DNA of 64,000 bases from a virus: the IMG/VR virus record IMGVR_UViG_3300045988_163836; one strand, given 5' to 3'. The first letter of the stretch is position 1; each line of letters begins with the position of its first letter. The notes beneath the pieces are model-generated. The model searched no databases. It was given only the letters and a program-made list of their open reading frames with translations, and was not told the origin of the DNA. The position numbers and the translations under genes are program-made. Positions 36,132 to 62,659 of the stretch are shown piece after piece.

Positions 36132-36818
36132 TTAGGATTTCATTTTTTCTTTACGAGAACTATTTCGGCATTTTTTGCATATACTATAAAATCCATCTTT
36201 ACTTGTTTTATTATAGGAAAAATATTTATTGTGAGCCAATTTAATTTGCCCACATCTACTGCATTTTTTATACTTACCTTTTTCTTGAGTTGTATAATAC
36301 CATTCTAAATATTTATCAACAGCTTTATCAGCAATAAGCTTTGGTATTTTATTGCGGAATAAACTTGATATATATTCTAAGCTGTGAGTAATATTAAATT
36401 CTTCTTGTAAAATTTTTTGAATCTCTATATTTTGTAATCCATCAATTTTACATTCTACAATGCGCATTAACATAGGATAATCAGCCAAGGCTTCATCGCA
36501 AATATTTTCAAAATCATAAATAAGATACCAAGTATCATCTTCAAAACGATCCCAACTATCTTCTTTTAATCGAGAATAATTACATAAGATACAAGAGCAA
36601 ATTTCAGGATTCATCAATGAGATTCCTTCTGGAATTGGATATCCATCATCATCAAATACTTTTACGTCTTCATCTAATTTAATTTTATACTTAGATCGTG
36701 TAAGCTTTACTGGTACTATTGGTTTTCGATAAGCATTTTTAATAATATATTGGTCTTTGCGCATTTCTATTAATGCCTTTTTTATAGTGAAAGCATCTTT
36801 ACCACTTACTACTTTCAT
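36132..36818 (-). CDS. Zinc-ribbon protein of 228 aa, a candidate late-gene regulator. It has no TAG and is readable in the standard code.
   Basis: Intact track ORF with a GGGAAG RBS before the ATG at 36816-36818. It carries a C-terminal CxxC...CxxC and an internal CxC..C. It is the first long gene of the minus-strand operon and contains no TAG in 228 codons. Confidence 0.45.
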   Translation of the reverse strand: MKVVSGKDAFTIKKALIEMRKDQYIIKNAYRKPIVPVKLTRSKYKIKLDEDVKVFDDDGYPIPEGISLMNPEICSCILCNYSRLKEDSWDRFEDDTWYLIYDFENICDEALADYPMLMRIVECKIDGLQNIEIQKILQEEFNITHSLEYISSLFRNKIPKLIADKAVDKYLEWYYTTQEKGKYKKCSRCGQIKLAHNKYFSYNKTSKDGFYSICKKCRNSSRKEKMKS

Positions 36819-36905
36819 TTTTGCTTCCCAAGTTGTAATAGCGTCTTTTAATTGTTTTAAGCTAGGAATTTCTTCTAAATCTTTTTTTGTAATTGTAACT
36901 TTTGG

Positions 36906-37190
36906 CTAAAATATCATATTTTTATCACTATTAATTAAATTATATATACCATCTTCACCATTCTCTAACTGGGAAACAAGTCCTTCGAAAGAAGTTTCAC
37001 GTTTATTAACTGTCATTAATCTATTATCAGTTAATATTTTCTTTTCTTTTTTTTCTTGTTTCTCCATACATAGAATTAAATAATCTGCGAGGATTTCTAA
37101 ATACTTTTCATTAGGATTTGGATTTTCCTCTAAAATTTTTTTTACTAATTCATTTCGTTCTTCAGGAGTTTCAAGAGTATAATCTAATTT
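36906..37190 (-). CDS. Small protein of about 94 aa with a TTG start after GGAGG. It terminates at TAG, assuming the standard code.
   Basis: Track ORF 36906..37253. RBS GGAGG with 8 nt of spacing to a TTG at about 37188-37190. It ends at the TAG at 36906-36908. If TAG were sense it would fuse in frame with 36132..36818. Confidence 0.35.
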   Translation of the reverse strand, partial: KLDYTLETPEERNELVKKILEENPNPNEKYLEILADYLILCMEKQEKKEKKILTDNRLMTVNKRETSFEGLVSQLENGEDGIYNLINSDKNMIF

Positions 37191-37225
37191 TATCAAGATT
37201 AATACCTCCAATCCTTCTAAAAAAA

Positions 37226-37307: not shown

Positions 37308-37336
37308 TTGACAATTATAAAAATTTTTTATATAAT
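37308..37336 (+). promoter_or_regulatory. Plus-strand early promoter (TTGACA-17-TATAAT) in the divergent intergenic region.
   Basis: ttgacaattataaaaattttttatataat, followed by AAAGGAG and an ATG at 37366. Confidence 0.55.
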
Positions 37337-37365
37337 ATTTATATAAAATTAAAGGAGATAATTTT

Positions 37366-37994: not shown

Positions 37995-38112
37995 TTTATG
38001 TTAAGATTTCGTTAAGAAAATTTTGACAAAACACAAAAAATTTTATAAAATAAGTTATGAAATTTCTGGGATGGCTCGCACTCTCCCAATTAAAAAGAAA
38101 GGAGTGAGTTGA

Positions 38113-43043: not shown

Positions 43044-43361
43044 TTTCCATTTGAATTTCCTCCCATATCTTGGGAGGAAATTCTATTTTGAAAATTATAA
43101 AAAAAAATAATATAATTTTTATATAAAAAAAATAATTTTTATTTCTGTTTCAATTCTATAATTTTCCAGTCAAAAAATCAAATGCGGCAAATTTGGCAAT
43201 CCCATAATTTGGAAGGGGAATTTGAGCCAGCCGCGATCCAACGCCGCGGCTGGAATTTCGCGAGTTAAAGTGCTAACGTAAAAAAGTTTTCCAAATCCTT
43301 CCAGCCCAGCCCTTGGAAAATTTTCCCAAAATGTTTGTGTAATTTGACGAATATTTTATGC

Positions 43362-45527: not shown

Positions 45528-46592
45528 ATGACTATTGAAAAAAATAAGAACTTGTTTATCATCACTCTTGGAGATGGCAAGAAAACCTACTTCAACTTCT
45601 CTGATGGCTGTATCTATGGTATGACCGGCAAAAAGGTTAAGGATTTTTGTCCAGAAGCAAAAAGGATTCTCAAAGAATACGCCGATAATAATTTTCTTGC
45701 AAGATATTTTGTAGTAAGAAATAAAGATTATGACTCTTATTTTAGTGATGCTAATAAATGGTCTACTGAAATGGTAGAAACTGTTTATAGCATCTTCGGC
45801 AAAGAATATAATTTGCGTATCCTTGGTGTAATTGCTTATTTCTGTAGCTATAATCATTATGTTCTTGATAAGCAAGGCGTTAAATATCTGAAATTAGGTC
45901 TTGCATCACTGGAAGAACGCCAGCTTGAAAATCTGTGCCGGAATGAAATTGAAGTTGCTGTTCGGGCAGTACATTATTCAAATGTCAATCCGCAGATTTT
46001 AAGAATGATGAATAATGTGAAGCCCGCAGTACATGAAATTATTCTGAAAGACGCAGATAAAATTTTGTTCCGAATGGAACATGAATGTTGGGAACTGCTT
46101 GAAGGCTTCTATGCTATGAGTAAATACATTGAAAGATATATCACACTCTGCAACGAATTGGGCAAAGAAAGAACATACAAAGATATGTTTTTAGCCATTT
46201 GTCAGATGGAAATGGAAAAACGCCTTGCTCTTGAAGCAGGAAGCAGAGACTATCAGTTAAATGCAAACCTTGCATTTGAAGATAATAATTTTATTGTACT
46301 TGTGCCAACGGTAGCAAAAGAATTTGAAGCAGAGGCCGACTATCAGTCAAACTGTGTTTATCGTGCCTATTATCCAAAGGTATTGAAGCGTGAAACACAC
46401 ATTGTTTTTATTCGGCACAAGGCTGAACCGGAAAAACCCTACATCACTTGCGAAGTAAATAATGATGGAAAAATCATCCAGTATCTGACACGTTTCAATA
46501 ATCGTGTTGATTGGGAAACTGATGAATTGGGCTTCCAGTTCCAAGCAATATACGCTAATTATCTTTCTGAACATTTTAATAAAAACGCTTGA
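45528..46592 (+). CDS. Hypothetical protein, 354 aa.
   Basis: Intact track ORF with RBS AAGAAAGAGG. No family recognised. Confidence 0.6.
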   Translation: MTIEKNKNLFIITLGDGKKTYFNFSDGCIYGMTGKKVKDFCPEAKRILKEYADNNFLARYFVVRNKDYDSYFSDANKWSTEMVETVYSIFGKEYNLRILGVIAYFCSYNHYVLDKQGVKYLKLGLASLEERQLENLCRNEIEVAVRAVHYSNVNPQILRMMNNVKPAVHEIILKDADKILFRMEHECWELLEGFYAMSKYIERYITLCNELGKERTYKDMFLAICQMEMEKRLALEAGSRDYQLNANLAFEDNNFIVLVPTVAKEFEAEADYQSNCVYRAYYPKVLKRETHIVFIRHKAEPEKPYITCEVNNDGKIIQYLTRFNNRVDWETDELGFQFQAIYANYLSEHFNKNA

Positions 46593-46617
46593 CAAAATAG
46601 CCCTATTGTGATATAAT
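46589..46617 (+). promoter_or_regulatory. Early promoter (TTGACA-17-TATAAT) overlapped by a palindrome.
   Basis: ttgacaaaatagccctattgtgatataat. The palindrome is tagccctat ... atagggcta at 46598-46624. Confidence 0.55.
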
Positions 46618-52034: not shown

Positions 52035-52259
52035 ATGGAAGATGGAAACATCTTCCATCCTTTTTGGAATCATAATTGGAAAATTTTTCCAAGGAAAATA
52101 TTGGAACAGATGGTAATTTCAACCGGTCGCGTACAGTTGACGCGACCGGAATTTTGATTTAATTTGATAATTGTAAATTTTCCGAAAAAAAATTCGGACA
52201 TTTTACGAAAATTGATTTTTCCCGAATTTTATAGTATTATGTAAAAGGAGGTAAAAATT

Positions 52260-52880
52260 ATGAACAAATATGAATTAGCAAAATATATTAATACAACAGT
52301 TGGAATGGTAGAAACCAATTTTCCCTTGCTCTGCTCTAAAAATTTAGCTAAAGGGTATTTAATTACAAAAATTGGTAAAGGTGAAACGGCTGATTATACT
52401 ATTCAAGAAGTAGAACCATAGATATTAGATAAAAAATTTTTTTCTAAAAAACGAGAACTTGATAATTATTCTCATTTATCTGAAGAAGAATTAAAAAATG
52501 AAAAATGGATAACTACTTATTGTTCTAACTTGTACGAAGTATCAGATTTAGGAAGGGTTAGAAAAAAATATGATAAAAAAATTTTATAGGGAACTATAAT
52601 AGATGGATATTAGTATGTAGAATTAGATTATCATAGATATGGAATGAATAGAATTGTATTACAATCTTGGCACCCTAGCCCTGATTTCCAAAATTTGACA
52701 GTAGACCATATTGATGGAAAAAGAGGGAATAATAGGTTATCAAATTTAAGATGGGGAACTAATAAAGAGAATACTGCTTGGATGTTAATGAATAGGAAAG
52801 AAATAACAAAGGAAACAACTCGATTGATAAATTAGTATGGGTATGATGAAGTATTAAAAATACTTCAATTAATTAAATAA
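52260..52880 (+). mobile_element. HNH homing endonuclease gene of about 206 aa. It is intact only if four in-frame TAGs are read as sense. It sits in an AT-rich island.
   Basis: Perfect RBS AAAGGAGGTAAAAATT then ATG. 'YEVSDLGRVRKK' (NUMOD4-like) and 'VDHIDGKRGNNRLSNLRWGTNKEN' (HNH motif). Track ORF 52644..52835 is the C-terminal piece. In-frame TAGs lie at about 52419, 52611, 52632 and 52836. With the standard code only a 53-aa stub is made. Confidence 0.6.
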
Positions 52881-53078
52881 ATAAATTGGAGCCGACCGGT
52901 CTGGCAAGACTTGGTCGGAATTTCCGTTTAAACCCTCATATGGCAATTTTTTGTTCAATCTAGCAGCCTCTCATATGCCGCATGTTTTTCCCGAAACTTG
53001 CAATTTTTAAAAAAATATTTTATAATATATATACAGAATAAAGAGTTCTGGAAATCTTTATAAAGAGGTAATATACAT

Positions 53079-53474
53079 ATGTATGATTTTTATGATCGTC
53101 TGATGAAGGGTGAATCCGCAGAGGATATTGCCAAGAGCATCACTGAGGAACTGAATAAGGCACAGGCCAAGAGAACAGAAGAGTTGAAGGCTCAGGCTGA
53201 AAAGTCCAAGAGAGATCAGACAATGGCCGCGGATGCACAGGCTATCTGCACTGGCCTGGTGAAGTTTGCTAAGGATTATTATGGTTATGACATTGAGGTC
53301 AAGCCGGAAGACCTGATGAAGGTTTTTGATATGGCTGATAAGATTGGTCGTGCTATTGAAGACCTTGGTAAGACGGTTGAGAAGCCTGCTGAGAAAGTAA
53401 AGGCTAAGGTATACAAGGTCAATGGCTCTGCTGATGAAGTCATTGATAAGTTCCTTAATATGATGGGGTGGTAA
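53079..53474 (+). CDS. Hypothetical protein, 131 aa (standard code).
   Basis: Track ORF with RBS AAAGAGG. A terminator follows at 53477-53512 (aagggcttatgccctt plus a T-run). Confidence 0.55.
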   Translation: MYDFYDRLMKGESAEDIAKSITEELNKAQAKRTEELKAQAEKSKRDQTMAADAQAICTGLVKFAKDYYGYDIEVKPEDLMKVFDMADKIGRAIEDLGKTVEKPAEKVKAKVYKVNGSADEVIDKFLNMMGW

Positions 53475-53838
53475 GAGAAGGGCTTATGCCCTTTTCTTAT
53501 TTTTTTATTTTGGCTGGAAAATTTTGGAAAGTCAAATTTGATTTTTATAAAAAAATATGATATAATATTAAAAAAAGATATAATTGCATTAGGGTGATGA
53601 ATAATTGATGTCGGTCGATATATGGAGAATAGGGGTACCACTGGTGCAGTAGGGGCACACCCACTCCCTAATTTAATACAATTTATATCAATTTTATAAC
53701 AATCTTTTCTCAAATTATTATAATTCATAAATGATTCTATATTAACTAATATTAATTTTAAATTAAATTTATATTAAATTTTTATAATACCTTCTTTATA
53801 ATTATATCTCTTGTAGGCTAATATACAATTAGCCTACT

Positions 53839-54450
53839 TTATTTATATCTAAATGGCTATAATCTACCTGCTATGTTCCCACAAGGTTTATATAATAAAA
53901 TTAACGCAAACTCTATAGTTTTTAAATCAGCAGATGTTATATTTCTATCACATAATAAATCCTCTCCTTTTATAATTGGTTTAAATTCAATATTATCTCT
54001 CTACTCATTTAATAGTTTATATACATATAAACTATTATTATGATTTTTAATATTTCTTTTATGTTCATTCCATCTTTTATTAAAATCAACAGTACTACCT
54101 ATATAAATTAACTATCCATTCCTATATATACCATATACTCCACCATCACATACCTATGATACATTTTTTTTAGACTATCGTTCAAGTAATTTTCGTCTTT
54201 CTTCCTACTATCTTGCAACCATAGCATCAAATTCATCTTTGGTTCCAAACCAATTATAATATTTCTATTTATATGTCCAATAAGGTTTAGTTAATTTTTT
54301 CTAATCATCTACACATATTTCTTTATAATTATCTGGAACTATCATAGCTATATATTCTCTATCTAACCAATCATTATATTTACTAAATGATGATAATGGT
54401 TCTAATGTTCTATAAATATTTAACAAATTCTCACGATTCTATAATTTCAT
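53839..54450 (-). mobile_element. GIY-YIG homing endonuclease gene of about 204 aa. It is intact only if about 9 in-frame TAGs are read as sense. It sits in an AT-rich island.
   Basis: Hand translation gives '...GGVYGIYRNG(Q)LIYIGSTVDFNKRWNEHKRNI...LYVYKLLNE...', the GIY-(10)-YIG..R..H..E module. There is no TAA/TGA until the TAA at 53839-53841. A hairpin terminator (gtaggctaat...tagcctac) lies at about 53796-53822. Confidence 0.55.
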
Positions 54451-54544
54451 ATTAAATTCATAATTTTTCCTTTCAATTTTTGATTTCATTTTTCAATTCA
54501 TTTCTTTGCAACCACAAGGCCAACACCGCCATTCAAGAAAATAC

Positions 54545-54845
54545 CCTGTTTTGTCCTATTGTGGACCGAATGGGACACAATAGGACAAATATGTTATGTT
54601 CGATGTCCTGAATAGGACAAATCGGACAGGACATTTTCTTTCTTCAGCTTTTGTCGCATTTGTCGCATTTGTCCTAAACTAAGTCATTTTGCTAATTTTT
54701 TTAGATTTTTATTTAGTTATGTCGCATTTGTCCTATCGACATTTTAATACTTTCATTTAAAAATAGGACAAAACTCATTTGTCCCATTCAAGACAAATGT
54801 CTGCTTTTGTCTCATTTGTCGCATTTGTCCTATAGGTCCCATTTA
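54545..54845. repeat. Iteron/palindrome array. It is a candidate replication origin, partition site or multi-site operator.
   Basis: Palindrome 1: TTGTCCTATTGTG (54551-54563) with CACAATAGGACAA (54576-54588). Palindrome 2: GATGTCCTG (54602-54610) with CAGGACAT (54627-54634). Direct repeats: TTGTCGCATTTGTCGCATTTGTCCTA (54651-54677), GTCGCATTTGTCCTA (54721-54735), TTTGTCGCATTTGTCCTATAGG (about 54816-54835). Extra TAGGACAAA half-sites are present. Confidence 0.6.
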
Positions 54846-54870
54846 ATATCTTCTATGCTAATTCAAATAT

Positions 54871-55296
54871 CTACGGAGCTTTATAATCTACTCTGTCTAA
54901 TGCTCTGGTACTAATCTTCTAACCAAAAATTTTAAAATAAGCATCAACTGCTTCCTATTTAGTAGGAACTCCATTTTTATCTTTAACAGCTTTTACTATC
55001 GCTTTTTCTACATCTTCTTTATAAATTCTCTACTATGCTCCACCAGCTGCTCCTGCTTCTGCTTTCTATTTACTAACCTCTTTAGACTTATCAATAGTAA
55101 GTTTCATAGACTATAACAGCATCATAATAACTCCATAATCTTTATCATTCTCATCAGGCTCAATACCATACAATCCATAGTTAGTTAATGCACTATATAA
55201 TTTATATTTTAATTCTACATCTTCATTCTATTCAATAGTTTCTCTCATATTAGCCCAGAAGGTAAATTTTTCTTTATTCGGCTTTTCAACTGCCAT
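54871..55296 (-). CDS. Hypothetical protein of about 141 aa (TAG-recoded; five internal TAGs). The lower boundary is uncertain.
   Basis: GGAGGTAATTATTT then the ATG at 55294-55296. If the TAG at 54871-54873 is also read through, the frame stays open into the iteron array as far as a TGA near 54787. Confidence 0.4.
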
Positions 55297-55302
55297 AAAT
55301 AA

Positions 55303-55485
55303 TTACCTCCTTTGAGCTTCAACAAAATCCCTCATAAAATCATCATCAACCTTAAATATCCAGCAATTATATTCAGGATATTTGGGATTGGGCATAGTCT
55401 ATATAGGGAAATGACCATTTTCCACTAGCTTTTCCATAACAGCTAATGAATAAATAATCATATTTTTATTTTGTTCTTTGTTCAC
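55303..55485 (-). CDS. Small hypothetical protein of about 60 aa (one in-frame TAG). The start is uncertain (GTG at 55485 or ATG at 55461).
   Basis: Hand translation: VNKEQNKNMIIYSLAVMEKLVENGHFPI(Q)TMPNPKYPEYNCWIFKVDDDFMRDFVEAQRR, ending in TAA. Confidence 0.3.
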
Positions 55486-55492
55486 TTTGTAT

Positions 55493-55644
55493 TACTTCTC
55501 CTTATCAATATATTCTTTAATGGCTTTTCTAATTAATTGCGAAACACTCATATCATTTTCTTTACAGAATTCATCAATACGTGCCTTTTCTTCATCCTTA
55601 ACACGAGTTGCAATATTATGATAGCCTTCACGTTTACTTGGCAT
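55493..55644 (-). CDS. Ribbon-helix-helix (CopG/Arc/MetJ-type) DNA-binding protein, 50 aa.
   Basis: GGAGAATATAT then ATG. 'YHNIATRVKDEEKARIDEFCKENDMSVSQLIRKAIKEYI' fits the RHH beta-alpha-alpha pattern. There is no TAG. Confidence 0.55.
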
Positions 55645-55859
55645 ATATATTCTCCTTTTCTTTTATTAATCTACTATATATAAAAATATGAATAATATTC
55701 TTAACCGCGGTGGCCCAAAAAATTTTAAGTAATTTATAACAAGTTTAATTGATATAAGTTGAAATAAAAATATACCTATTGGTTTTATAAATAGTGGAAA
55801 AATATAAAAAAATTTGATAAAATATATATAAGATAAAAGATAAGAAAGGAAAATCTTAA

Positions 55860-56327
55860 ATGCCAAATTATCGTGAACAAAATGGCGAAGTTGGTAGCTA
55901 CAACAATCTTAAAGTCTGGGTCCTTAATGGTGAAGAGTTCCAGAAGAGGCTACTCACCAAGGGCGGACTTAGTGCTACTACTATCTACTGCCTTAAAGAT
56001 TATGACCCCTATCATAAATTACTGCCCGACTGCATGTATGCCTATATGATTAACCCCAATGATAAAGATAATCTTTACTGCCTTGGCACTATGGGCAATT
56101 ATGGAAAAGTGAATTTCAAGAAAAATATTGCAGCATGTGAAAAATTCGCACTCGCCCCTAAGCCTACTCCTAAGCCCGCATTTGAAATAGATACCACTAA
56201 TTATGGCGACGCACCTACTCTTACAACTATTGACAGCATTCTGGCCGATATCCAAAAGTGGAATACACAAATTAATTATGCTGACTATACTAAAACAGTG
56301 GATAAATATCTGGAGGCTCTTGTATGA
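55860..56327 (+). CDS. Hypothetical protein, 155 aa.
   Basis: Track ORF with GAAAGGAAAATCTTAA then ATG. A very AT-rich conserved promoter-like block lies upstream. Confidence 0.55.
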   Translation: MPNYREQNGEVGSYNNLKVWVLNGEEFQKRLLTKGGLSATTIYCLKDYDPYHKLLPDCMYAYMINPNDKDNLYCLGTMGNYGKVNFKKNIAACEKFALAPKPTPKPAFEIDTTNYGDAPTLTTIDSILADIQKWNTQINYADYTKTVDKYLEALV

Positions 56328-56533
56328 AAAAGTTTATGTAGTTTGCCCTAGATGATAATAATATATTTTTCTATGTCGTTAATGATATTGTAAACGTAAA
56401 ATTCTATACTCAAAATGAATTAAATAATGAATTAACAATGGAACTTACAACTAAATCTAACGGTATTGAAACATTTACATTCGATAACATAAGAGATTAT
56501 CAAGACGCTATAGATACATTTAATGACTTATGA
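56324..56533 (+). CDS. Small hypothetical protein of about 69 aa with one in-frame TAG (at the 6th codon).
   Basis: ATGA overlap with the upstream stop. The frame runs MKKFM(TAG)FALDDNNIFFYVVNDIVNVKFYTQNELNNELTMELTTKSNGIETFTFDNIRDYQDAIDTFNDL to a TGA that overlaps the next ATG. Confidence 0.3.
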
Positions 56534-56826
56534 TTAATCCATATTTCACATTTACAACAGATAATAAAAATTTTTGCTGCTATAAAACATCGGCCATCCT
56601 CTACGTTAGTTTTTATACCGACCCAAATGAAAAATATAAAATGCAAATTCAAACTGTAGGAGATACCACAGAAGAGACGATAGCTGTTTATTCCTTCAAA
56701 GATAAAAAATATTGGGATGCTGCCCAAGATAAATGGATGGATATTATGCGAGCCGCACGCAATGAAGCAGTAAATAATACCAATATGAAATATTACGGTA
56801 GCTATGGAGATGTTGACCCATGGTAA
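56530..56826 (+). CDS. Hypothetical protein, 98 aa.
   Basis: Track ORF with ATGA overlap. Confidence 0.5.
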   Translation: MINPYFTFTTDNKNFCCYKTSAILYVSFYTDPNEKYKMQIQTVGDTTEETIAVYSFKDKKYWDAAQDKWMDIMRAARNEAVNNTNMKYYGSYGDVDPW

Positions 56827-57020
56827 TTACTATCTATACAGGCCTTCAACGCAAACATCAAGTGAAAAATGACATTCGCTTCGTAAAAGGCGACAATACT
56901 ACTAACACTATTCATGTTACCTTTTGGAGTGGTAGAAAAGCTAAATACAAATGTGATGATAAAATCTATTATATTGCCGCATATGAGAGACTTCGCCGAA
57001 ACATTCAATATCCATTTTAA
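56820..57020 (+). CDS. Hypothetical protein, 66 aa.
   Basis: Track ORF. Confidence 0.4.
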   Translation: MVITIYTGLQRKHQVKNDIRFVKGDNTTNTIHVTFWSGRKAKYKCDDKIYYIAAYERLRRNIQYPF

Positions 57021-57080
57021 TTGAAAAATAAATAAAAATATTATAAAATATATATATAAACAATAGAGGAAAAATAAAAA

Positions 57081-57374
57081 ATGGATAAAAACTTATTTGC
57101 TAAACTTACTACTCTTACCTCTGAAGCGGAAGCCAACAAGGAACGTGCGGCAACTGAAAGAGCAGAAGAAATCATCACAAATAATACGCCGGCAATGCTA
57201 CAAGCGGCAACAAATGGTGCATATGCCTATACCATTGTCATTTCTCCCGATGATACTCCGTCATCAAGCAATTATACCGTTAAGAAACTTCAAGAAATTC
57301 TTAATTCTAATAAGTTTACAACTTGTTTTACCAATAATACGATGATTGTAAGGTGGCGTCCGAATGAATCTTGA
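57081..57374 (+). CDS. Hypothetical protein, 97 aa.
   Basis: Track ORF with AGAGGAAAAATAAAAA then ATG. Confidence 0.55.
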   Translation: MDKNLFAKLTTLTSEAEANKERAATERAEEIITNNTPAMLQAATNGAYAYTIVISPDDTPSSSNYTVKKLQEILNSNKFTTCFTNNTMIVRWRPNES

Positions 57375-57639
57375 CGAATATCTTGACCGTGCAACTGAAA
57401 TGCGGAATGAGATTGCGGCCTATGATGAGAAGATAGTACGCCTTTTGGACAAAAGAGTTCAATTGGCAAAAAACTTGGTAGAACTCAAAAAAGAACATTC
57501 TCGTCCCGCATATACACCAATAGTAGAAGAAAAGAAGATAGAGTATTTAAGCACTCTAACTTCTTATCCAGATTTAATTAAAATGATATGGCCTATGATT
57601 ATGGGCTATAGCCGCATCCCCTATAACGAAAGGATTTAA
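57364..57639 (+). CDS. Hypothetical protein, 91 aa.
   Basis: Track ORF overlapping the upstream stop. Confidence 0.5.
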   Translation: MNLDEYLDRATEMRNEIAAYDEKIVRLLDKRVQLAKNLVELKKEHSRPAYTPIVEEKKIEYLSTLTSYPDLIKMIWPMIMGYSRIPYNERI

Positions 57640-57640
57640 T

Positions 57641-57793
57641 TATGAAAATGAAAAACAATGTCTCCGGTAAGACTTATACGATCGCACAAATTTTCCGAGA
57701 CGATAGCGGATATTTCCGTGTCCTTTACTTTGATCCCGAAGCAAATAGATGGCTAACCGAAAGCCTCAACTTCTTTACTCCAGTAGAAAACTA
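57641..57793 (+). CDS. Small hypothetical protein, 50 aa.
   Basis: Hand-translated as MKMKNNVSGKTYTIAQIFRDDSGYFRVLYFDPEANRWLTESLNFFTPVEN. Confidence 0.35.
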
Positions 57794-57821
57794 ACTAAAA
57801 TTAAGAAAGGAAAAGACGTAA

Positions 57822-59192
57822 ATGTATAATGTATATATTTGTAAAGTAAAAAACATTAGACCTGCGGAAAATGCTGACCGTCTGAATACCTGTGAAGTAT
57901 TTGGTATTACTACCATTGTTGATAAATCCGTGAATGAAAATGACCTTTACGTCTATTTTCCTACGGATGGTCAGATTAGCGAAGAGTTTGGTAAGGCAAA
58001 TGATCTCTTCCGCCGCCAGGATGAAAATGGTAATCCGGCTGGTGGTTTCATTGACCCTGTGAAGCGTAATATTGGTGCAATTCGTCTACGCGGCAATAAG
58101 TCTGAAGGCCTGGTACTTCCGCTTACTTGTCTTGCTTCTTTTGGCGACATTAGCAATCTAGCTGAAGGTGATATTGTATCTACCTTTAATGGTCATGTGA
58201 TTGCCGAGAAGTACGTGCCGATGCATAAGCCCAGAGCTTCACAACCTACTGCACGCGGCGAACGCGACCGTAAGTCTGCAAAGAAATGCCGCATTAAGTA
58301 CCCGTTCTTCGCAGAACATATTGATACTCCGCAGCTTCGTTTTAATATGGATATGTTTAAACCGGGTGATATCATTTGCCTGACCGAGAAAGTTCATGGT
58401 ACCAGCTCTCGAAACGCATATCAAACTGCAATTATTGGTGAAAACGGTTTCTTCCTTACTAAACTTATTGCACACAGCAATTGGTTACCGAAGAAATGGC
58501 GTATGTCTGCACAGTCCCACCTTACTCCTAAAACTGAAATGCGTTATCTAATTGGCACTCGCCGCACTGTTCTTACCAATAATAGTGTTGGCGGTTTCTA
58601 TGGTAATGATGATTTCCGTAGAGCTTGGGGCGAACGTTTCAAGGGTAAGCTTCTGCCCAATGAGGAATGCTTCGGTGAAATTGCAGGATTCTATGCTCCT
58701 AACGCACCTATTATGACGCCGGGTGATAACACTAAAACTAAAGATAAAGCATTTATCAAACAATATGGTAAGACCACTACCTTCTCTTATGGTTGTTCTC
58801 CTACTGGTGACAATAAGCATCTTAATCGCTATTTTGTTTATCGTATGACTTATACCACTCCAGAAGGAGTAGTAATTGAATATCCTTGGGACCTTGTTAA
58901 GCAACGTGCTGAACAGATGGGTTTTGAAACTGTGCCTGAACTTGAACGTTTTATTTACACCACTGAAGAGGATTTTCTAGCACGAATTGCTAAATATGAG
59001 GATATTCCTTCTACGATTGATTCTTCTCATGTTATTGAGGGCGTAGTTATTCGTAAGATGAACGGCACTCGTTTCGATGTTGCAAAAGATAAATCTTATA
59101 ATTTTAAAGTGCTTGAGAACCTGATTAAGGTTGATGCAGAAGTGCCTGACATGGAAGAAATTGAAGAAGAAATGACTTTGGAGGATAATTAA
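57822..59192 (+). CDS. ATP-dependent RNA ligase, 456 aa, with an N-terminal OB-like domain (Rnl2/Rnl5-like nucleotidyltransferase).
   Basis: 'LTEKVHGTSSRN' matches the KxHGxN motif I variant of the Rnl2/DraRnl-type ligases. The N-terminal roughly 150 aa look OB-like, which is the Rnl5 arrangement. RBS AAGGAAAAG. Confidence 0.5.
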   Translation: MYNVYICKVKNIRPAENADRLNTCEVFGITTIVDKSVNENDLYVYFPTDGQISEEFGKANDLFRRQDENGNPAGGFIDPVKRNIGAIRLRGNKSEGLVLPLTCLASFGDISNLAEGDIVSTFNGHVIAEKYVPMHKPRASQPTARGERDRKSAKKCRIKYPFFAEHIDTPQLRFNMDMFKPGDIICLTEKVHGTSSRNAYQTAIIGENGFFLTKLIAHSNWLPKKWRMSAQSHLTPKTEMRYLIGTRRTVLTNNSVGGFYGNDDFRRAWGERFKGKLLPNEECFGEIAGFYAPNAPIMTPGDNTKTKDKAFIKQYGKTTTFSYGCSPTGDNKHLNRYFVYRMTYTTPEGVVIEYPWDLVKQRAEQMGFETVPELERFIYTTEEDFLARIAKYEDIPSTIDSSHVIEGVVIRKMNGTRFDVAKDKSYNFKVLENLIKVDAEVPDMEEIEEEMTLEDN

Positions 59193-59195
59193 TGG

Positions 59196-59412
59196 ATTTA
59201 ATTATAGGAGTTTTTATCCTCTGTATATTTGCCGTTTTAGTTGGAGCAGCATTAGGGAGTGAAATATAATGATTGTAATAGTATTATGTACCTTAATTGG
59301 TGCAGTTATTGGAATTGTATTAGCGAGGGCTACTGATTAATGGAACTATTTTTCTTAACCATTTTTATTTGTCTTACCTTTTATGCTCTTGGCAGTTTGT
59401 ACAATGATTAAA
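59196..59412 (+). other. Three tandem micro-ORFs of 23-25 aa encoding hydrophobic single-helix peptides.
   Basis: MDLIIGVFILCIFAVLVGAALGSEI, MIVIVLCTLIGAVIGIVLARATD and MELFFLTIFICLTFYALGSLYND, each with its own ATG and stop. Confidence 0.3.
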
Positions 59413-59492
59413 ATATTTATTTTTGGTTTTGTAATCATTGCATTCGTAATGTATTTATTCTGTAAAACAAACGATTTATAAGGAGAAATAAT

Positions 59493-59792
59493 ATGAGAAG
59501 TAGAAGTAGCGTCCTGATTGTTATTATTGTTGTGGCTCTTGTAATTGGTATGTTGATTTTTACATTCAGTGGTGCGAATTTCCAGCGTACCTTAAAGAGT
59601 TGGAGAAGTAATTACACTGGCGGTCTTTATCGTATTGTGTCTGTCTATGATTACAATGGTAATCTCTTGCGGGAATATGGTCCGGCAATGATTGATATTA
59701 GTGAATCAGAAAATGAAACATTCTTTGATTATAATGGTAATCGTGTCGTAATTCATAATGCTATTGTAATCGTTGAAGAAGTAAATAGATAA
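59493..59792 (+). CDS. Membrane-anchored hypothetical protein, 99 aa.
   Basis: Track ORF with RBS AAGGAG. A terminator follows at about 59795-59830. Confidence 0.55.
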   Translation: MRSRSSVLIVIIVVALVIGMLIFTFSGANFQRTLKSWRSNYTGGLYRIVSVYDYNGNLLREYGPAMIDISESENETFFDYNGNRVVIHNAIVIVEEVNR

Positions 59793-59879
59793 TCAAAGAG
59801 CCAGAGTAAATCTGGCTCTTTTATTTTTATAAAAAAATTTGTTAAAATATATATATAAAAATGAGGGAGAAAATAAATT

Positions 59880-60212
59880 ATGAAGTATGTTGCTTATGAT
59901 TATTTTGATAACTTCTATCCTGGTATTCTTGGTATCTGTAATACTGAAGCTGATGTGCAGGAACTGATTCTTGCCGCCGCCGAAGAAGAAGCATATAGGG
60001 CATTCCTTGATGATTATTATTATAATGAAACAGAAATTACAGTAAAACCTGGTGAAAATCCTATGGAAGTTTATCTCAATGATAAAGTTCTTGACTGGAA
60101 AGAGTATAATAAATTTAGATTTCCATTTGACGATAAAGATATTTCTTTCTATGGTTGGACTCTTCTTATGGCTGGTGAATATTATAACTATTCTATTGGA
60201 GAGGAGTACTAA
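59880..60212 (+). CDS. Hypothetical protein, 110 aa. Member 1 of a four-gene tandem paralog array.
   Basis: Starts MKY... and carries the motif 'CNTEADVQELILAAAEEEAY'. Confidence 0.55.
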   Translation: MKYVAYDYFDNFYPGILGICNTEADVQELILAAAEEEAYRAFLDDYYYNETEITVKPGENPMEVYLNDKVLDWKEYNKFRFPFDDKDISFYGWTLLMAGEYYNYSIGEEY

Positions 60213-60488
60213 ATGAAATATTTAATTTCTGAAATTGATGATGATGCTTGTTGTGAAATCCCTCGATATATTTGCAACACTCGTGCAGATGCCGAAGAAG
60301 CTATTCTGGCATTAACTGAAGAAGATGTATATTATCAAGCAATGTATGAAGGTGTAGATAATTTCTTCAATAACAGTTTTGAATTTAGAAAATCAAGACA
60401 TCCAGAAATGAAATGCAAAACTCATTACGGCACAGCTCTTTGGTTTATGAGTGGTCGATTTATTATTGAAGAATTAGGAGAATATTAA
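60213..60488 (+). CDS. Hypothetical protein, 91 aa. Paralog 2.
   Basis: Starts MKY... and carries 'CNTRADAEEAILALTEEDVYY'. Confidence 0.55.
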   Translation: MKYLISEIDDDACCEIPRYICNTRADAEEAILALTEEDVYYQAMYEGVDNFFNNSFEFRKSRHPEMKCKTHYGTALWFMSGRFIIEELGEY

Positions 60489-60490
60489 TT

Positions 60491-60784
60491 ATGAAAATTT
60501 ATACAGTTATAGATAGTAATAATTATGGTGAAATTAATAATTATGGTAATAACTATGAAGTATATTCTTTTAGAAATCTTAATGACGCACAAGAATTTGT
60601 TCTTTCATGCGTAGAACAAGAAAGTTTAAATACATATAATCATCTAATATCTATTTACACTGAAGAAAATGTTTTAACAGAATGGAAAAGATTAGCTTCT
60701 AAATATAACAAAACTCTTGAAGGTTATATACTTTATAAGGGCGGATATAATTTAAATGGAATTTATGAAAGTGAGCTTAATTAA
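60491..60784 (+). CDS. Hypothetical protein, 97 aa. Paralog 3 (divergent).
   Basis: Starts MKIY... and carries 'FRNLNDAQEFVLSCVEQE'. Confidence 0.5.
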   Translation: MKIYTVIDSNNYGEINNYGNNYEVYSFRNLNDAQEFVLSCVEQESLNTYNHLISIYTEENVLTEWKRLASKYNKTLEGYILYKGGYNLNGIYESELN

Positions 60785-61060
60785 ATGAAATATGTTGTTT
60801 GGGATAGTTGCAGTGATGATTTAATCTGCTGCGATAGCCGAGCCTCCGCCGAAGAACTTGTTCTATCTATCGCCGAAGAAGAAGCATTTATCGAATATAA
60901 TTATGGCATTAATAAACTTGATGATGCCGATACTCTTGAAGAATATACAGATACATTACGTGATTGGTGGAAGAAATATCAGTGTAGTAATAAATGTATT
61001 GCTCTTTTCTTTGGCGGAATTAATTACTACATTAGAGCTATTCCAAGTTTGGAGGATTAA
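60785..61060 (+). CDS. Hypothetical protein, 91 aa. Paralog 4.
   Basis: Starts MKY... and carries 'CDSRASAEELVLSIAEEEAF'. Confidence 0.55.
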   Translation: MKYVVWDSCSDDLICCDSRASAEELVLSIAEEEAFIEYNYGINKLDDADTLEEYTDTLRDWWKKYQCSNKCIALFFGGINYYIRAIPSLED

Positions 61061-61062
61061 AT

Positions 61063-61293
61063 ATGTATTTTAGATATAAAGTAAATTGGAATTATGATGA
61101 CAAGTCAAAAGATGAGACAGGACTCGTATATTCTGATAATGACGTTGATGAAGGATATACTGATGCTATGGAAAAGATTTACCAGTATTTTGATAGCATT
61201 AATAAGGTAGAGCTTGAAGCATTCGCCCCTGATGATTGTCTTGAAGTAAGTGCCGAAGCACTTGATGCAATTCAGGAGAATGTGCTGTGGTAA
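61063..61293 (+). CDS. Hypothetical protein, 76 aa.
   Basis: Track ORF. Confidence 0.5.
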   Translation: MYFRYKVNWNYDDKSKDETGLVYSDNDVDEGYTDAMEKIYQYFDSINKVELEAFAPDDCLEVSAEALDAIQENVLW

Positions 61294-61502
61294 ATTTGCG
61301 TCGATGCGGCAGATGCGGCTATCGTGTTCAAGGTCAATGCCGCATCGTCTCTGGCTTGCGTGTCGATGATGAAGATCCAGGCTGTAAATTCTTCTGCTCT
61401 AACCCACCGCATTGTACCAGGTGTGGCACTATCCTTCAAAATAATCAAGTTCTTATCGTAGATGATAAAATTTATTGTAAAAATTGTGGGAGTAATATAT
61501 GA
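61287..61502 (+). CDS. Zinc-ribbon protein, 71 aa (three CxxC pairs).
   Basis: Track ORF with CGRCG, CTRCG and CKNCG. Confidence 0.5.
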   Translation: MVNLRRCGRCGYRVQGQCRIVSGLRVDDEDPGCKFFCSNPPHCTRCGTILQNNQVLIVDDKIYCKNCGSNI

Positions 61503-61705
61503 TTTATAAAATTAAAGCTGAAGGATATCCATATCCTATTCATGTTAATACTGCTGTTATTCCTATTATGTATATCATTAAAATTGAAAAAAATTTGTAC
61601 GAATTAACAATGGTTGAATCTTTATCAAAAAGGTATAAACTTACTATTAATGCTCTCGAAAACCGCGATTTTATTGAATTTATGGGAGGGAAAGTAGAAG
61701 AATGA
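61499..61705 (+). CDS. Hypothetical protein, 68 aa.
   Basis: Track ORF. Confidence 0.45.
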   Translation: MIYKIKAEGYPYPIHVNTAVIPIMYIIKIEKNLYELTMVESLSKRYKLTINALENRDFIEFMGGKVEE

Positions 61706-62199
61706 TTTTTTTCTTGATCGCCGCTGCCATTACCATTGTTTATAGTATTCAGCAGTATATTAAATATTATAGCTTTTCAAAAATTTGGAAGTGGTTTAAG
61801 GCCGAATTTCTATGGGCAGCCGTTTGTACTTGTATGGCCGCCATCGTTATCAGTTCACTATTTGCTGTTGTTTATTGTGGAATTCCTGACAGCAAAGAAC
61901 ATTCAGTAATTGAAGTAGAAAACTATCACGAACTTAAACCTATGTCAGAAGATACTTATATTCAATGGGGCAGTAATAATTCTGTTATTGTTCTTTTGGA
62001 TAATGGCTATTATCAGACATATAAACTTGATAATAGTTCAGTATTTATTAAGACTTGTGCCGATGGCGAAGTACCTAATGTAAAAACAATTAATTATACA
62101 AAATATGATGATTATCGTCAGTGGCTCTGTCTCTGGAATGCCTTGAATAGTGAGACATTTATTACACTTCCTCCTGGAGTTTGTAAACCTATTACATAA
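61702..62199 (+). CDS. Membrane protein, 165 aa, with two N-terminal transmembrane segments.
   Basis: Track ORF. A terminator follows at about 62200-62240. Confidence 0.5.
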   Translation: MIFFLIAAAITIVYSIQQYIKYYSFSKIWKWFKAEFLWAAVCTCMAAIVISSLFAVVYCGIPDSKEHSVIEVENYHELKPMSEDTYIQWGSNNSVIVLLDNGYYQTYKLDNSSVFIKTCADGEVPNVKTINYTKYDDYRQWLCLWNALNSETFITLPPGVCKPIT

Positions 62200-62305
62200 G
62201 GTCGGTTGGCTATCCCAATCGGCCTTATTTATTTTTATAAAAAAATATTATAAAATATTTATATAAAGAAATGAGAAATAAAAAAATTGTCAAGGAGGAT
62301 ATATC

Positions 62306-62659
62306 ATGAGTGTTGAATATGAAGTATTTGTAGGCCGCGGTTTTATGTTTGGTGAAGGTAATGTTCCTTCATTTAAAGAATATTGTGAACGAGCAAAAAT
62401 TGATCCGAATGAAACATTTGAAATTCTTCAAGAAGATGACCTTGTAATTTCTGATTGCTATGGCTATGATTGGCTGGACCATGTCTTCTTTGGTTATCGC
62501 CTTTTTAGTATTGACCTTGATTCGTCATTCAATTATAATCGTCTTAACCATTTTGAAATTGATGTAAATAAGGAACATGAAATGGAAAAAAAGTTTAATG
62601 AAGTGTTTGGCGAATATCCGCCGATTTTTAGCAATTATATTGCAGAAAGGGCATATTAA
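62306..62659 (+). CDS. Hypothetical protein, 117 aa.
   Basis: Track ORF with RBS AAGGAGG. Confidence 0.55.
   Translation: MSVEYEVFVGRGFMFGEGNVPSFKEYCERAKIDPNETFEILQEDDLVISDCYGYDWLDHVFFGYRLFSIDLDSSFNYNRLNHFEIDVNKEHEMEKKFNEVFGEYPPIFSNYIAERAY

What the first reader, a model, noticed from the sequence alone, without database searches (positions are those of the whole stretch)
52980..62300. A second, very AT-rich conserved promoter class that appears after terminators from about 53 kb on
At least eight intergenic sites share a long motif of roughly TTTTATAAAAAAAT-ATT-TAAAATATATATATAAA. They are at about 37310-37345, 43095-43140, 52990-53040, 53525-53580, 55790-55850, 57030-57070, 59825-59870 and 62228-62275. 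Most sit immediately after a terminator hairpin and before an RBS and ATG.

The 39-52 kb genes instead use textbook TTGACA-17-TATAAT promoters. A shared 30-35 nt element of this kind suggests a distinct transcription programme for the 55.8-64 kb block, such as a phage-encoded sigma factor or RNA polymerase, or activator-dependent middle promoters. That block also has a lower GC content than 39-52 kb.
Basis: seen in the sequence. Interest (0 to 1): 0.65.

Follow-up and report, generated by a model that had tools for sequence, protein, structure and literature searches.

The report
Conserved AT-rich phage promoter family
Eight intergenic sites in this phage share a 41-base AT-rich box that is a genuine promoter family, also found in about 30 other groups of uncultured large phages. 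It carries the ordinary signals read by the host's main RNA polymerase, so it does not look like the mark of a separate phage polymerase or sigma factor.

Summary
Exactly eight sites, all on the + strand, share a gap-free 41-nt motif. They start at 37308, 43088, 52998, 53538, 55795, 57021, 59820 and 62228. Each site still ranks in the window's top 8 when left out of the scoring matrix, and simulated windows never come close.

The motif is itself a primary-sigma promoter: a -35 hexamer (TTGACA, TTGAAA, TTGATT or TTTATT), exactly 17 nt of spacer, then TATAAT or TAAAAT. Its special features are a fixed T-rich then A-tract spacer and a fixed ATaTATATAAA start region. The 38-52 kb promoters differ in spacer and flanks, not in their hexamers.

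The same extended consensus occurs in 64 contigs, about 30 lineages, of mostly 100-400 kb uncultured phages. It is almost absent from bacterial genomes, and absent from the pieces of cultured relatives phiCD211 and SPbeta that I scanned. The sites point at genes: 179 of 240 have a ribosome-binding site and start codon, at a median of 33 nt after the -10 hexamer. The genes served are for replication, NAD metabolism, RNA repair and tRNAs.

No RNA polymerase gene was found in the window. The one gene labelled "sigma factor" heads the late operon and could not be verified as a sigma.

Most likely these are host-polymerase promoters with an unusually constrained spacer and start region. A factor that reads the extra box is not excluded. 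Interest is moderate to low.

The parts
37308..37348 (+). AT-rich (class II) promoter: TTGACA, 17 nt, TATAAT, then ATTTATATAAAA. It diverges from the late operon and precedes the small ORF 37366-37521.
   Evidence: The orthologous position keeps a class II-like promoter in relatives L096 and L099.
43088..43128 (+). AT-rich promoter: TTGAAA, 17 nt, TATAAT. It sits directly after terminator 43053-43083. No ORF follows for about 270 nt, until the class I promoter at 43362.
52998..53038 (+). AT-rich promoter: TTGCAA, 17 nt, TATAAT. It precedes ORF 53079-53474.
   Evidence: It is identical in L002 and L003 although the upstream flanks differ.
53538..53578 (+). AT-rich promoter: TTGATT, 17 nt with TGa, TATAAT. 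It follows terminator 53470-53501. No ORF lies downstream; the transcript would run towards terminator 53813-53837.
55795..55835 (+). AT-rich promoter: TGGAAA, 17 nt with TGa, TAAAAT. It diverges from the - strand ribbon-helix-helix gene 55492-55644 and precedes ORF 55860-56327.
57021..57061 (+). AT-rich promoter: TTGAAA, 17 nt, TAAAAT. It starts at the stop codon of ORF 56820-57020 and precedes ORF 57081-57374. The unit also carries a chorismate-mutase-like gene and an RNA-ligase gene.
59820..59860 (+). AT-rich promoter: TTTATT, 17 nt with TGt, TAAAAT. Its -35 hexamer is the T-run of terminator 59795-59821. It precedes the paralogous gene series that starts at 59880.
62228..62268 (+). AT-rich promoter: TTTATT, 17 nt, TAAAAT. 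Its -35 hexamer is the T-run of terminator 62196-62228. It precedes ORF 62306-62659.
   Evidence: It is kept upstream of the 74%-identical orthologue in L023, which has a different leader.
43053..43083 (+). Intrinsic-terminator-like hairpin directly upstream of site 43088.
53470..53501 (+). Intrinsic-terminator-like hairpin upstream of site 53538.
59795..59821 (+). Intrinsic-terminator-like hairpin overlapping the -35 hexamer of site 59820.
62196..62228 (+). Intrinsic-terminator-like hairpin abutting the -35 hexamer of site 62228.
46589..46617 (+). Comparator: a class I promoter, TTGACA, 17 nt with TGa, TATAAT, with a mixed-composition spacer. Others of this class are at 38023, 38768, 43362, 43814, 47335, 47802, 48846 and 51102.
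36132..37195 (-). Context: the first gene of the late block, labelled "sigma factor" only by PHROG. It has a TTG start and one in-frame TAG. Its own promoter, TTGACT, 17 nt, TGtTATAAT, lies at 37253-37225.

Best explanation
The eight sites are promoters read by the host RNA polymerase with its primary (sigma-A / sigma-70 type) sigma factor.

**Proposed mechanism**
- Recognition goes through a -35 hexamer, a 17-nt spacer and a -10 hexamer (TATAAT or TAAAAT). In three of the eight sites a TG extended -10 is also present.
- Transcription should start at the conserved A about 7 nt after the -10 hexamer, inside the ATATATAAA box. This gives leaders of about 23-46 nt that carry the ribosome-binding site.

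**What sets the family apart**
- The non-hexamer parts are also fixed: T-rich at -31 to -27, an A-tract at -24 to -18, T-A-T-(G) at -17 to -14, and an all-A/T discriminator and start region.
- I infer that these parts tune promoter strength, melting or escape for this group of phages. This is not shown.
- About half the sites are fused to an upstream terminator. They therefore act as terminator-promoter punctuation that starts independent non-structural transcription units.

**Shown:** sequence architecture, geometry, orientation, conservation.

**Inferred:** which polymerase reads the sites, the start site, and the timing.
For: - **Primary-sigma architecture.** All eight sites have exactly 17 nt between a -35-like and a -10-like hexamer. 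Six were returned by a plain sigma-70 scan with 9-12 of 12 matches.
- **The -35 hexamer is part of the motif.** In 193 unique sites from other phages, chosen only on the A-tract spacer plus TAWAAT, the unforced upstream hexamer is TTGATT (93), TTTATT (42), TTGACT (17) or TTGACA (16). 74% have at least 4/6 matches to TTGACA, against 5% by chance.
- **Extended -10 and start base.** In 270 sites chosen only as TTGANN-17-TATAAT, the spacer shows T(-17) 90%, A(-16) 76%, T(-15) 85% and G(-14) 60%. This is the Gram-positive TRTG "-16 region". The predicted start is A in 81%.
- **Orientation and geometry.** Of 240 unique sites, 179 have a ribosome-binding site and ORF start within 110 nt downstream, against 14 in the opposite direction. 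The median distance from the end of the -10 hexamer to the start codon is 33 nt (IQR 31-40). A same-strand tRNA gene starts within 200 nt downstream in 27 site-gene pairs.
- **TATAAT is the -10, not the downstream box.** In several sites the ribosome-binding site begins 1-2 nt after the TATATAA box (L026, L041). Only TATAAT, not TATATAA, can then be the -10 element.
- **Genes served are non-structural.** They include DNA polymerase III alpha, NAD-dependent ligase, GyrB, RNA ligase, a cytidylyltransferase-like protein and an isochorismatase-family protein. In the window they include RNA ligase and a chorismate-mutase-like protein.
- **No alternative polymerase or verified sigma** was found in the window.
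Against: - The extra conservation is about 27-33 bits outside the hexamers. That is far more than a primary sigma is known to need.
- It is lineage-specific. It is absent from 50 kb of the 25%-GC relative phiCD211 and from 50 kb of SPbeta. Two promoters in phAss-1 use a different spacer.
- The strict motif is almost absent from 185,579 bacterial genomes. It gave 19 stretches, all in metagenome bins, and several of those contigs cluster with viral contigs. So it cannot be shown to be the host's own promoter consensus.
- The weak -35 subclass (TTTATT) has fewer TG and more TAAAAT. It is therefore not compensated by known primary-sigma elements. All four sites of the 55.8-64 kb block are of this weaker kind.
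- No transcription data exist. The host is unknown.
Confidence: 0.6

Rival explanations
1. Factor-dependent (middle-type) promoters. Host polymerase with its primary sigma still uses the -10 hexamer. In addition, a phage-encoded or host-clade-specific DNA-binding protein reads the conserved T5-A7 spacer box or the ATATATATAAA start box. That protein switches these units on or off at a different time from the 38-52 kb promoters.
For: - There are 27-33 bits of conserved information outside the hexamers. This information is kept across about 30 lineages but absent from cultured relatives.
- The spacer core TTTTTATAAAAA is a perfect palindrome centred near -25 (read directly from the sequence).
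- The 55.8-64 kb sites have weak -35 hexamers and TAAAAT. The weak -35 subclass is not compensated by TG.
- Small DNA-binding proteins are encoded nearby. A ribbon-helix-helix gene (55492-55644, - strand) lies divergent from site 55795, and a MraZ/AbrB-like protein is also present.
- Site 43088 lies in tandem, 274 nt upstream of class I promoter 43362. This is what dual temporal control of one gene would look like.
- At least one unit served by such a promoter contains a TAG-recoded gene (56324-56533; also the SAM-synthetase-like gene in L002). That fits expression after the suppressor tRNA appears.
Against: - The box is equally present in sites with a perfect TTGACA and TATAAT (37308). Such sites should not need an activator.
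- None of 52 proteins has a MotA or AsiA domain.
- No candidate factor is shown to co-occur with the motif.
- The lineages carrying the motif share little else in the stretches fetched. That argues for a common host-side reader rather than a common phage protein.
Confidence: 0.25
2. The motif is the promoter of a phage-encoded sigma factor or RNA polymerase. Its likeness to -35 and -10 hexamers is incidental in AT-rich DNA.
For: - The phage belongs to the SPbeta-like group (TerL and YonG homology; Pfam YonG_N, YonD_N and YonB in relatives).
- The type member of that group transcribes its late genes with its own polymerase, YonO, whose promoter is unknown (PMC5467207).
- A gene labelled "sigma factor" by PHROG lies in the window.
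- The rest of the genome, about 80 kb, was not seen.
Against: - The -35 hexamer at exactly 17 nt, and the TG, are recovered at positions the search did not force, far above chance.
- No motif lies in front of any late gene.
- There is no YonO homologue in the window or in about 800 kb of related loci.
- The SPbeta yonN-yonK gap, which holds the YonO start site, has nothing similar.
- The 25%-GC phiCD211 DNA gives no match. AT-richness alone therefore does not create the motif.
Confidence: 0.07
3. Composite terminator-promoter cassettes. Their long identity would be maintained because they serve as patches of homology for shuffling small genes within and between phages, like PeSLs in T4-type phages. 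Promoter activity would be real but would not be the reason for the 41-nt identity.
For: - Four of eight sites are fused to a terminator hairpin.
- They flank small genes of unknown function in a variable region.
- Near-identical copies occur in many otherwise unrelated phages.
- The variable - strand cluster at 53.7-55.4 kb lies between two sites. The 52129-52937 insertion ends about 60 nt before site 52998.
- The precedent is PMC2839356 and PMC4122927.
Against: - Most breakpoints against four close relatives are not at the motif. The RNA-ligase swap, the gain or loss of a paralogue at 60.2-60.8 kb, and the 59.2 kb indel all lie inside transcription units.
- Position-specific conservation of 60-90% rather than block identity across about 30 lineages looks like functional constraint, not recent copying.
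Confidence: 0.08

Closest known systems
Gram-positive "extended" sigma-A promoters: -35 TTGACA, the -16 region TRTG, -10 TATAAT (Graves & Rabinowitz 1986; Helmann 1995; Voskuil & Chambliss 1998; all recalled from memory, not read here)
   Same: The hexamers, the 17-nt spacing, TATG at -17 to -14, an A/T-rich context and an A start. All were observed at positions the searches did not force.
   Different: Here the whole spacer (T5 then A7) and the discriminator and start region are position-specifically conserved. That is not part of the described consensus. The motif was not found in cultured Firmicute phage relatives.
Strong early promoters of coliphages T5 and T4, which share homology well beyond the two hexamers (Gentz & Bujard 1985; Wilkens & Rueger 1996; recalled from memory)
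   Same: A family of many phage promoters read by the host primary-sigma holoenzyme, with shared A/T-rich blocks in the spacer, upstream region and start region.
   Different: The sequence blocks and the host phylum are different. Here the same consensus spans about 30 phage lineages rather than one phage, and nothing has been tested experimentally.
PeSL composite promoter and stem-loop cassettes of T4-type phages (PMC2839356, PMC4122927)
   Same: A strong sigma-70-like promoter joined to a terminator stem-loop, repeated many times, mostly upstream of small genes of unknown function in variable regions.
   Different: Only 4 of 8 sites carry the hairpin. Indel junctions against relatives are mostly not at the motif. 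Recombination at the sites has not been shown.
T4 middle promoters, which depend on MotA and AsiA (recalled from memory)
   Same: A good -10 hexamer plus a conserved box around -30. Some sites have a poor -35 hexamer.
   Different: Most sites keep a -35 hexamer at the canonical spacing. None of 52 proteins has a MotA or AsiA domain.
The host-takeover module of Bacillus phage SPO1: an array of small genes, each with its own very strong sigma-A promoter (Stewart et al. 1998; recalled from memory)
   Same: This resembles the other class, the 38-52 kb promoters. In relatives L096 and L099 these form arrays of 12-15 near-perfect TTGACA-17-TATAAT promoters per 10 kb.
   Different: This is the comparator class, not the AT-rich motif itself.

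Membership tests
Primary-sigma (sigma-70 / sigma-A) promoter | -35 hexamer resembling TTGACA | tested here: met
   The window sites read TTGACA, TTGAAA (twice), TTGCAA, TTGATT, TGGAAA and TTTATT (twice). In 193 sites chosen without reference to the -35 hexamer, 74% have at least 4/6 matches against 5% by chance.
Primary-sigma (sigma-70 / sigma-A) promoter | Spacer of 17 +/- 1 nt between the hexamers | tested here: met
   Exactly 17 nt in all eight sites and in the wider set.
Primary-sigma (sigma-70 / sigma-A) promoter | -10 hexamer TATAAT | tested here: met
   TATAAT at four sites and TAAAAT at four.
Primary-sigma (sigma-70 / sigma-A) promoter | Extended -10 (TG, or TRTG in Gram-positives). 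Optional but typical. | tested here: met
   TG is present at 53538, 55795 and 59820. In 270 sites chosen on the hexamers alone: T(-17) 90%, A(-16) 76%, T(-15) 85%, G(-14) 60%.
Primary-sigma (sigma-70 / sigma-A) promoter | Intergenic position, pointing at a gene, with room for a leader that carries the ribosome-binding site | tested here: met
   6 of 8 sites in the window. In the wider set, 179 of 240 sites against 14 of 240 in the opposite direction; the median from the -10 hexamer to the start codon is 33 nt.
Primary-sigma (sigma-70 / sigma-A) promoter | Initiation by host holoenzyme at a mapped start site | not testable with these tools
   This needs dRNA-seq or in vitro transcription. The host is unknown.
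Promoter of an alternative phage sigma (SPO1 gp28 or gp33/34 type) | Hexamers different from the primary-sigma consensus | tested here: not met
   The hexamers are primary-sigma-like.
Promoter of an alternative phage sigma (SPO1 gp28 or gp33/34 type) | A phage-encoded sigma-70-family protein | tested here: inconclusive
Promoter of a phage RNA polymerase (YonO type, as in SPbeta) | A YonO-like polymerase gene in the phage | tested here: not met
   tblastn with SPbeta YonO finds nothing in the window or in the fetched loci. The rest of the genome was not seen.
Promoter of a phage RNA polymerase (YonO type, as in SPbeta) | Placement in front of late (structural) genes | tested here: not met
   No site lies on the - strand or in the 1-37 kb region.
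Activator-dependent middle promoter (T4 MotA/AsiA type) | The -35 hexamer is replaced by an activator box near -30 | tested here: inconclusive
   A conserved box spans -31 to -18, but a -35 hexamer is also present in most sites.
Activator-dependent middle promoter (T4 MotA/AsiA type) | MotA-like and AsiA-like proteins are encoded | tested here: not met
   A Pfam scan of 52 non-late proteins found none. Only ribbon-helix-helix and MraZ/AbrB-like DNA binders turned up.
PeSL-type terminator-promoter shuffling cassette | A strong sigma-70-like promoter joined to a stem-loop terminator | tested here: met
   Met at 4 of 8 sites. Many TTTATT-type sites elsewhere directly follow hairpins.
PeSL-type terminator-promoter shuffling cassette | Indel and replacement junctions between close relatives fall at the cassettes | tested here: inconclusive
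   Two variable segments lie next to sites. Four other junctions lie inside transcription units.

The most novel reading that the evidence does not exclude
The conserved T5-A7 spacer box and the ATATATATAAA start box could be the recognition site of an as yet unidentified factor. This might be a phage-encoded activator or sigma appropriator, or a host-clade-specific protein. It would define a shared, separately timed (middle-type) transcription programme across dozens of lineages of large, uncultured, AT-rich gut and rumen phages, several of which recode TAG.
Probability: 0.2. Interest if true: 0.6.

Novelty: new member of a known kind. Interest (0 to 1): 0.33.

Why it matters
The motif gives a ready, sequence-defined marker of transcription-unit starts in a large group of uncultured 100-400 kb phages. 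That group includes TAG-recoded SPbeta-like and phAss-like phages, whose gene expression has not been studied. It would improve operon and non-coding RNA annotation in them.

It also poses a clear, testable question: why are a promoter spacer and start region conserved at 60-90% per position across about 30 lineages? If a factor reads the extra box, it would be a new handle on temporal control in recoded phages. If not, the motif is a natural example of how far a primary-sigma promoter can be constrained, and a candidate strong promoter for low-GC hosts.

Tried and rejected
- **Known RNA families.** There is no tRNA and no Rfam match at gathering score in the window. Relaxed Rfam scans downstream of the two ORF-less sites gave only chance-level hits. 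The fold of 53573-53700 is no better than shuffles (z = -0.7). A structured RNA is therefore not supported.
- **Close DNA relatives among deposited phages.** None was found for 55.7-64 kb.
- **Likeness to the SPbeta YonO promoter region.** The yonN-yonK gap is a 1.7-kb, comparatively GC-rich non-coding stretch with no such motif. No YonO homologue was found.
- **Is the motif a by-product of AT-richness or general to the phage family?** Rejected. 50 kb of phiCD211 at 25% GC scores at most 16.9 bits, and 50 kb of SPbeta at most 14.8 bits. The phAss-1 late region has none.
- **Is it the host's own promoter consensus?** This could not be shown. The strict pattern hits only 19 stretches in 185,579 species genomes, all in metagenome bins, and several of those contigs cluster with viral contigs.
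- **PeSL-like shuffling.** Breakpoints mostly do not coincide with the sites.
- **Literature search for the sequence itself.** No paper was found. The phAss-1 paper says nothing on promoters, sigma factors or polymerases.
- **TATATAA as the true -10 element.** Rejected, because in some sites the ribosome-binding site begins 1-2 nt after it.

Full report
**What the window is**

The DNA is AT-rich, at about 30% GC. From 1 to 37.3 kb the genes lie on the - strand and can be read only if TAG is translated. Read this way they give ORFs of 1207, 1142, 1104 and 3125 aa, among others. They include a portal protein, a large terminase and virion proteins.

The terminase is 42-47% identical to those of phage phAss-1, Geobacillus virus E3 and Enterococcus phages EF1 and H1. 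It also matches SPbeta YonF. Relatives carry the Pfam families YonG_N, YonD_N and YonB.

The window is therefore part of an SPbeta-like / phAss-like siphovirus that reads TAG as glutamine in its late genes. The phAss-1 group of about 135 kb is described in PMC10607447, which says nothing about promoters, sigma factors or polymerases. From 37.3 kb onwards most genes are small, lie on the + strand and have no known function.

**Checking the observation**

All eight sites are present and align without gaps:

| Start | -35 | Spacer (17 nt) | -10 | Start region |
|---|---|---|---|---|
| 37308 | TTGACA | attataaaaatttttta | TATAAT | atttatataaaa |
| 43088 | TTGAAA | attataaaaaaaaataa | TATAAT | ttttatataaaa |
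| 52998 | TTGCAA | tttttaaaaaaatattt | TATAAT | atatatacagaa |
| 53538 | TTGATT | tttataaaaaaatatga | TATAAT | attaaaaaaaga |
| 55795 | TGGAAA | aatataaaaaaatttga | TAAAAT | atatataagata |
| 57021 | TTGAAA | aataaataaaaatatta | TAAAAT | atatatataaac |
| 59820 | TTTATT | tttataaaaaaatttgt | TAAAAT | atatatataaaa |
| 62228 | TTTATT | tttataaaaaaatatta | TAAAAT | atttatataaag |

- A 25-nt core gives 6 matches against 0.01 expected.
- A 41-nt matrix separates the eight sites (41-45 bits) from everything else (at most 25 bits).
- Left out of the matrix, each site still ranks in the top 8 of both strands. Simulated windows reach at most 14.9 bits.
- Outside the two hexamers the sites still carry 27-33 bits. 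Away from the eight sites the best position scores 13-15 bits (the reverse strand of sites 62228 and 59820 reaches 17-22 bits, reflecting partial symmetry).

All sites are on the + strand and intergenic. Four follow a terminator hairpin directly. Six are followed by a ribosome-binding site and an ATG; from the predicted start base this gives leaders of about 23-46 nt. Two have no ORF for about 250 nt. The GC difference between the blocks is real but modest.

**What the motif is**

Read as above, the motif is a -35 hexamer, 17 nt, then a -10 hexamer. The plain sigma-70 scan had already returned six of the eight sites.

The 38-52 kb promoters (class I) have TTGACA, usually TGn, and TATAAT or a close variant. 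Their spacers are of mixed composition. They share a leader of the form caaaaggaaaggaattgata...ATG.

In relatives fetched through a protein rather than through the motif (L096 and L099, where the neighbouring protein is 71-72% identical), class I forms arrays of 12-15 near-perfect promoters per 10 kb. These read TTGACA-a.ccggg..TGTGC-TATAAT-.....CAGAAAG, one per small gene. The promoter orthologous to 37308 keeps the all-A/T spacer and an ATATATAGA start region. Two families therefore exist, and both persist in the phage lineage.

**Evidence from other sequences**

A strict 31-nt version of the motif, with the -35 hexamer and four spacer positions left free, matches 71 stretches of the IMG/VR viral collection. 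These hold 86 sites, 64 of them unique. In 185,579 bacterial and archaeal species genomes it matches only 19 stretches. All of those are in metagenome bins, and several of the contigs cluster with viral contigs.

The 64 contigs form about 30 clusters at the nucleotide level. Most share no protein with the window in the stretch fetched.

The positions left free give the same answer in three separate selections.

- **Strict-pattern sites.** The upstream hexamer is TTGATT, TTTATT, TTGACT and similar.
- **Sites chosen only on the A-tract plus TAWAAT.** 74% have at least 4/6 matches to TTGACA at exactly 17 nt, against 5% by chance.
- **270 sites chosen only as TTGANN-17-TATAAT** (positions numbered so that the predicted start base is +1):

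| Position | Conservation |
|---|---|
| -31 to -27 | T 61-77% |
| -24 to -18 | A 62-87% |
| -17 | T 90% |
| -16 | A 76% |
| -15 | T 85% |
| -14 | G 60% |
| -6 | A 89% |
| -5 | T 83% |
| -1 | T 84% |
| +1 (predicted start) | A 81% |
| +3, +4 | A 85-86% |

Orientation is strongly biased. Of 240 sites, 179 have a ribosome-binding site and an ORF start within 110 nt downstream, against 14 in the other direction. The median from the -10 hexamer to the start codon is 33 nt. A same-strand tRNA gene starts within 200 nt downstream in 27 site-gene pairs, including one tRNA that ARAGORN labels Pyl, which I take to carry a CUA (amber-reading) anticodon.

The genes served include DNA polymerase III alpha, NAD-dependent ligase, GyrB, RNA ligase, a cytidylyltransferase-like protein and an isochorismatase-family protein. 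In some sites the ribosome-binding site starts 1-2 nt after the TATATAA box, so only TATAAT can be the -10 element.

Controls were negative. Fifty kb of phiCD211 (25% GC) and 50 kb of SPbeta have no site above 17 bits. The phAss-1 piece has none; it does have two promoters with a different fixed spacer, TAAAAAnATTTTTATGc.

**How it most likely works**

*Shown:* canonical primary-sigma geometry, direction, fixed distance to gene starts, and conservation under selection.

*Inferred:* host RNA polymerase with its primary sigma binds the -35, -16 and -10 elements. It starts at the conserved A about 7 nt after the -10 hexamer. The T-tract/A-tract spacer and the all-A/T discriminator and start region tune strength, melting or escape.

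Where the site follows a hairpin, the T-run of the terminator doubles as the -35 hexamer (TTTATT). This gives a compact terminator-promoter joint that starts a new non-structural unit. I put this at 0.6.

The main rival, at 0.25, is the same promoter plus a factor that reads the extra box.

- In favour: the amount and lineage-specificity of the extra conservation; the palindromic spacer core TTTTTATAAAAA; the weak hexamers of the 55.8-64 kb sites; the lack of TG compensation in the weak -35 subclass; the nearby small DNA-binding proteins; and the tandem arrangement of 43088 and 43362.
- Against: the box is also present in a site with perfect hexamers, and no MotA-like or AsiA-like protein is encoded.

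A separate phage sigma or polymerase (0.07) is disfavoured.

- The hexamers and their spacing are recovered at unforced positions.
- No late gene has the motif.
- No YonO homologue was found, and the SPbeta region that holds the YonO start site (PMC5467207) looks nothing like the motif.
- The gene labelled "sigma factor" (36132-37195, - strand) could not be verified as a sigma. It has 6210 homologues, none with a Pfam domain. It sits at the head of the late operon, behind its own class I-like promoter.

A PeSL-like recombination role (PMC2839356, PMC4122927) is possible as a side effect. The junctions against four relatives do not support it.

**Comparison with what is known**

The motif works like the extended sigma-A promoters of Gram-positive bacteria. 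It also resembles the strongly conserved early promoter families of T5 and T4, and in half the cases it looks like a PeSL cassette. The references for the first two are recalled from memory.

Membership in the primary-sigma promoter class is met for every feature that sequence analysis can test. Experimental start sites and polymerase dependence cannot be tested here.

The exact consensus was not found in the searchable literature. The motif is therefore a new, widely shared member of a known kind, not a new kind of system.

**Verdict**

- Interest is 0.33.
- The most novel reading still open is a factor-defined middle programme shared by many uncultured phages. Its probability is about 0.2.

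Noticed in passing
window 1-37445 (- strand) and 53839-55644 (- strand): The late structural genes, and a small - strand operon, can be read only with TAG translated (TAG to Gln). Examples are a 3125-aa tape-measure-like ORF with 109 TAGs and a 216-aa GIY-YIG-like ORF with 10 TAGs. No suppressor tRNA, and no tRNA at all, lies in the window.
   Followed up: partly
window 36132-37195 (- strand); TAG at 36903-36905: The first gene of the late block is labelled "sigma factor" only by PHROG. It contains one in-frame TAG at a position where homologues have Q (IFQPK). The full-length protein would therefore need the suppressor tRNA, which could act as a timing gate for late genes. The family has 6210 homologues, no Pfam domain and no recognisable sigma fold.
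   Followed up: partly
window 54550-54833: An iteron-like cluster holds eight copies of TTTGTCCTAT in both orientations, plus tandem 9-nt GTCGCATTT units. It lies inside the recoded - strand operon. It could be a replication origin or a protein-binding array.
   Followed up: partly
window 43123-43360 and 53573-53840: Two AT-rich promoters have no ORF downstream for about 250 nt, so they may drive non-coding RNAs or long leaders. The first holds a 9-bp GC hairpin (CCAGCCGCG...CGCGGCTGG). The second would end at the two-way terminator 53813-53837. Neither has an Rfam match, and for the second (the only one folded) the fold is no more stable than shuffles.
   Followed up: partly
window 52129-52937: This 0.8-kb cassette holds a TAG-recoded 206-aa gene (52260-52880, four TAGs) with its own TTGATT-17-TATTAT promoter. 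It is absent from three close relatives (L002, L003, L004), which have a junction of about 20-40 bp instead. It may be a mobile gene.
   Followed up: partly
window 38-52 kb; L096 1-9800 and L099 1-9900 (- strand in the locus): The other promoter class forms dense arrays, up to 12-15 per 10 kb. The promoters are near-perfect TTGACA-17-TATAAT with a shared CCGGG-containing spacer, TGTGC at -16 and a CAGAAAG start region, one per small gene. This resembles a host-takeover module.
   Followed up: partly
window 59880-61060: Four tandem paralogous genes of about 91-110 aa start at 59880, 60213, 60491 and 60785. Relatives gain or lose single copies: one is missing in L004 and L002 has an extra one.
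   Followed up: no
window 56324-56533; L002 13811 onwards: Some + strand genes behind AT-rich promoters contain in-frame TAG. One is a 69-aa ORF in the window. Another is a SAM-synthetase-like gene of about 707 aa in close relative L002, with a TAG at codon 21. Recoding is therefore not confined to structural genes.
   Followed up: no
window 55492-55644 (- strand): A 50-aa ribbon-helix-helix (CopG/Arc-like) gene opens the recoded - strand operon. It lies divergent from AT-rich promoter 55795 and is a candidate local regulator. Assigning the Pfam RHH hit to this ORF rests on reading its sequence, not on a per-protein table.
   Followed up: no
L001 (phAss-1) 41313 and 22936, - strand of the locus: phAss-1 has promoters with a different fixed spacer: TTGACA/TTGCAA-TAAAAAnATTTTTATGc-TATAAT-ATAGnTAGAAAA. 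This suggests that each lineage of this phage group keeps its own extended promoter consensus.
   Followed up: no
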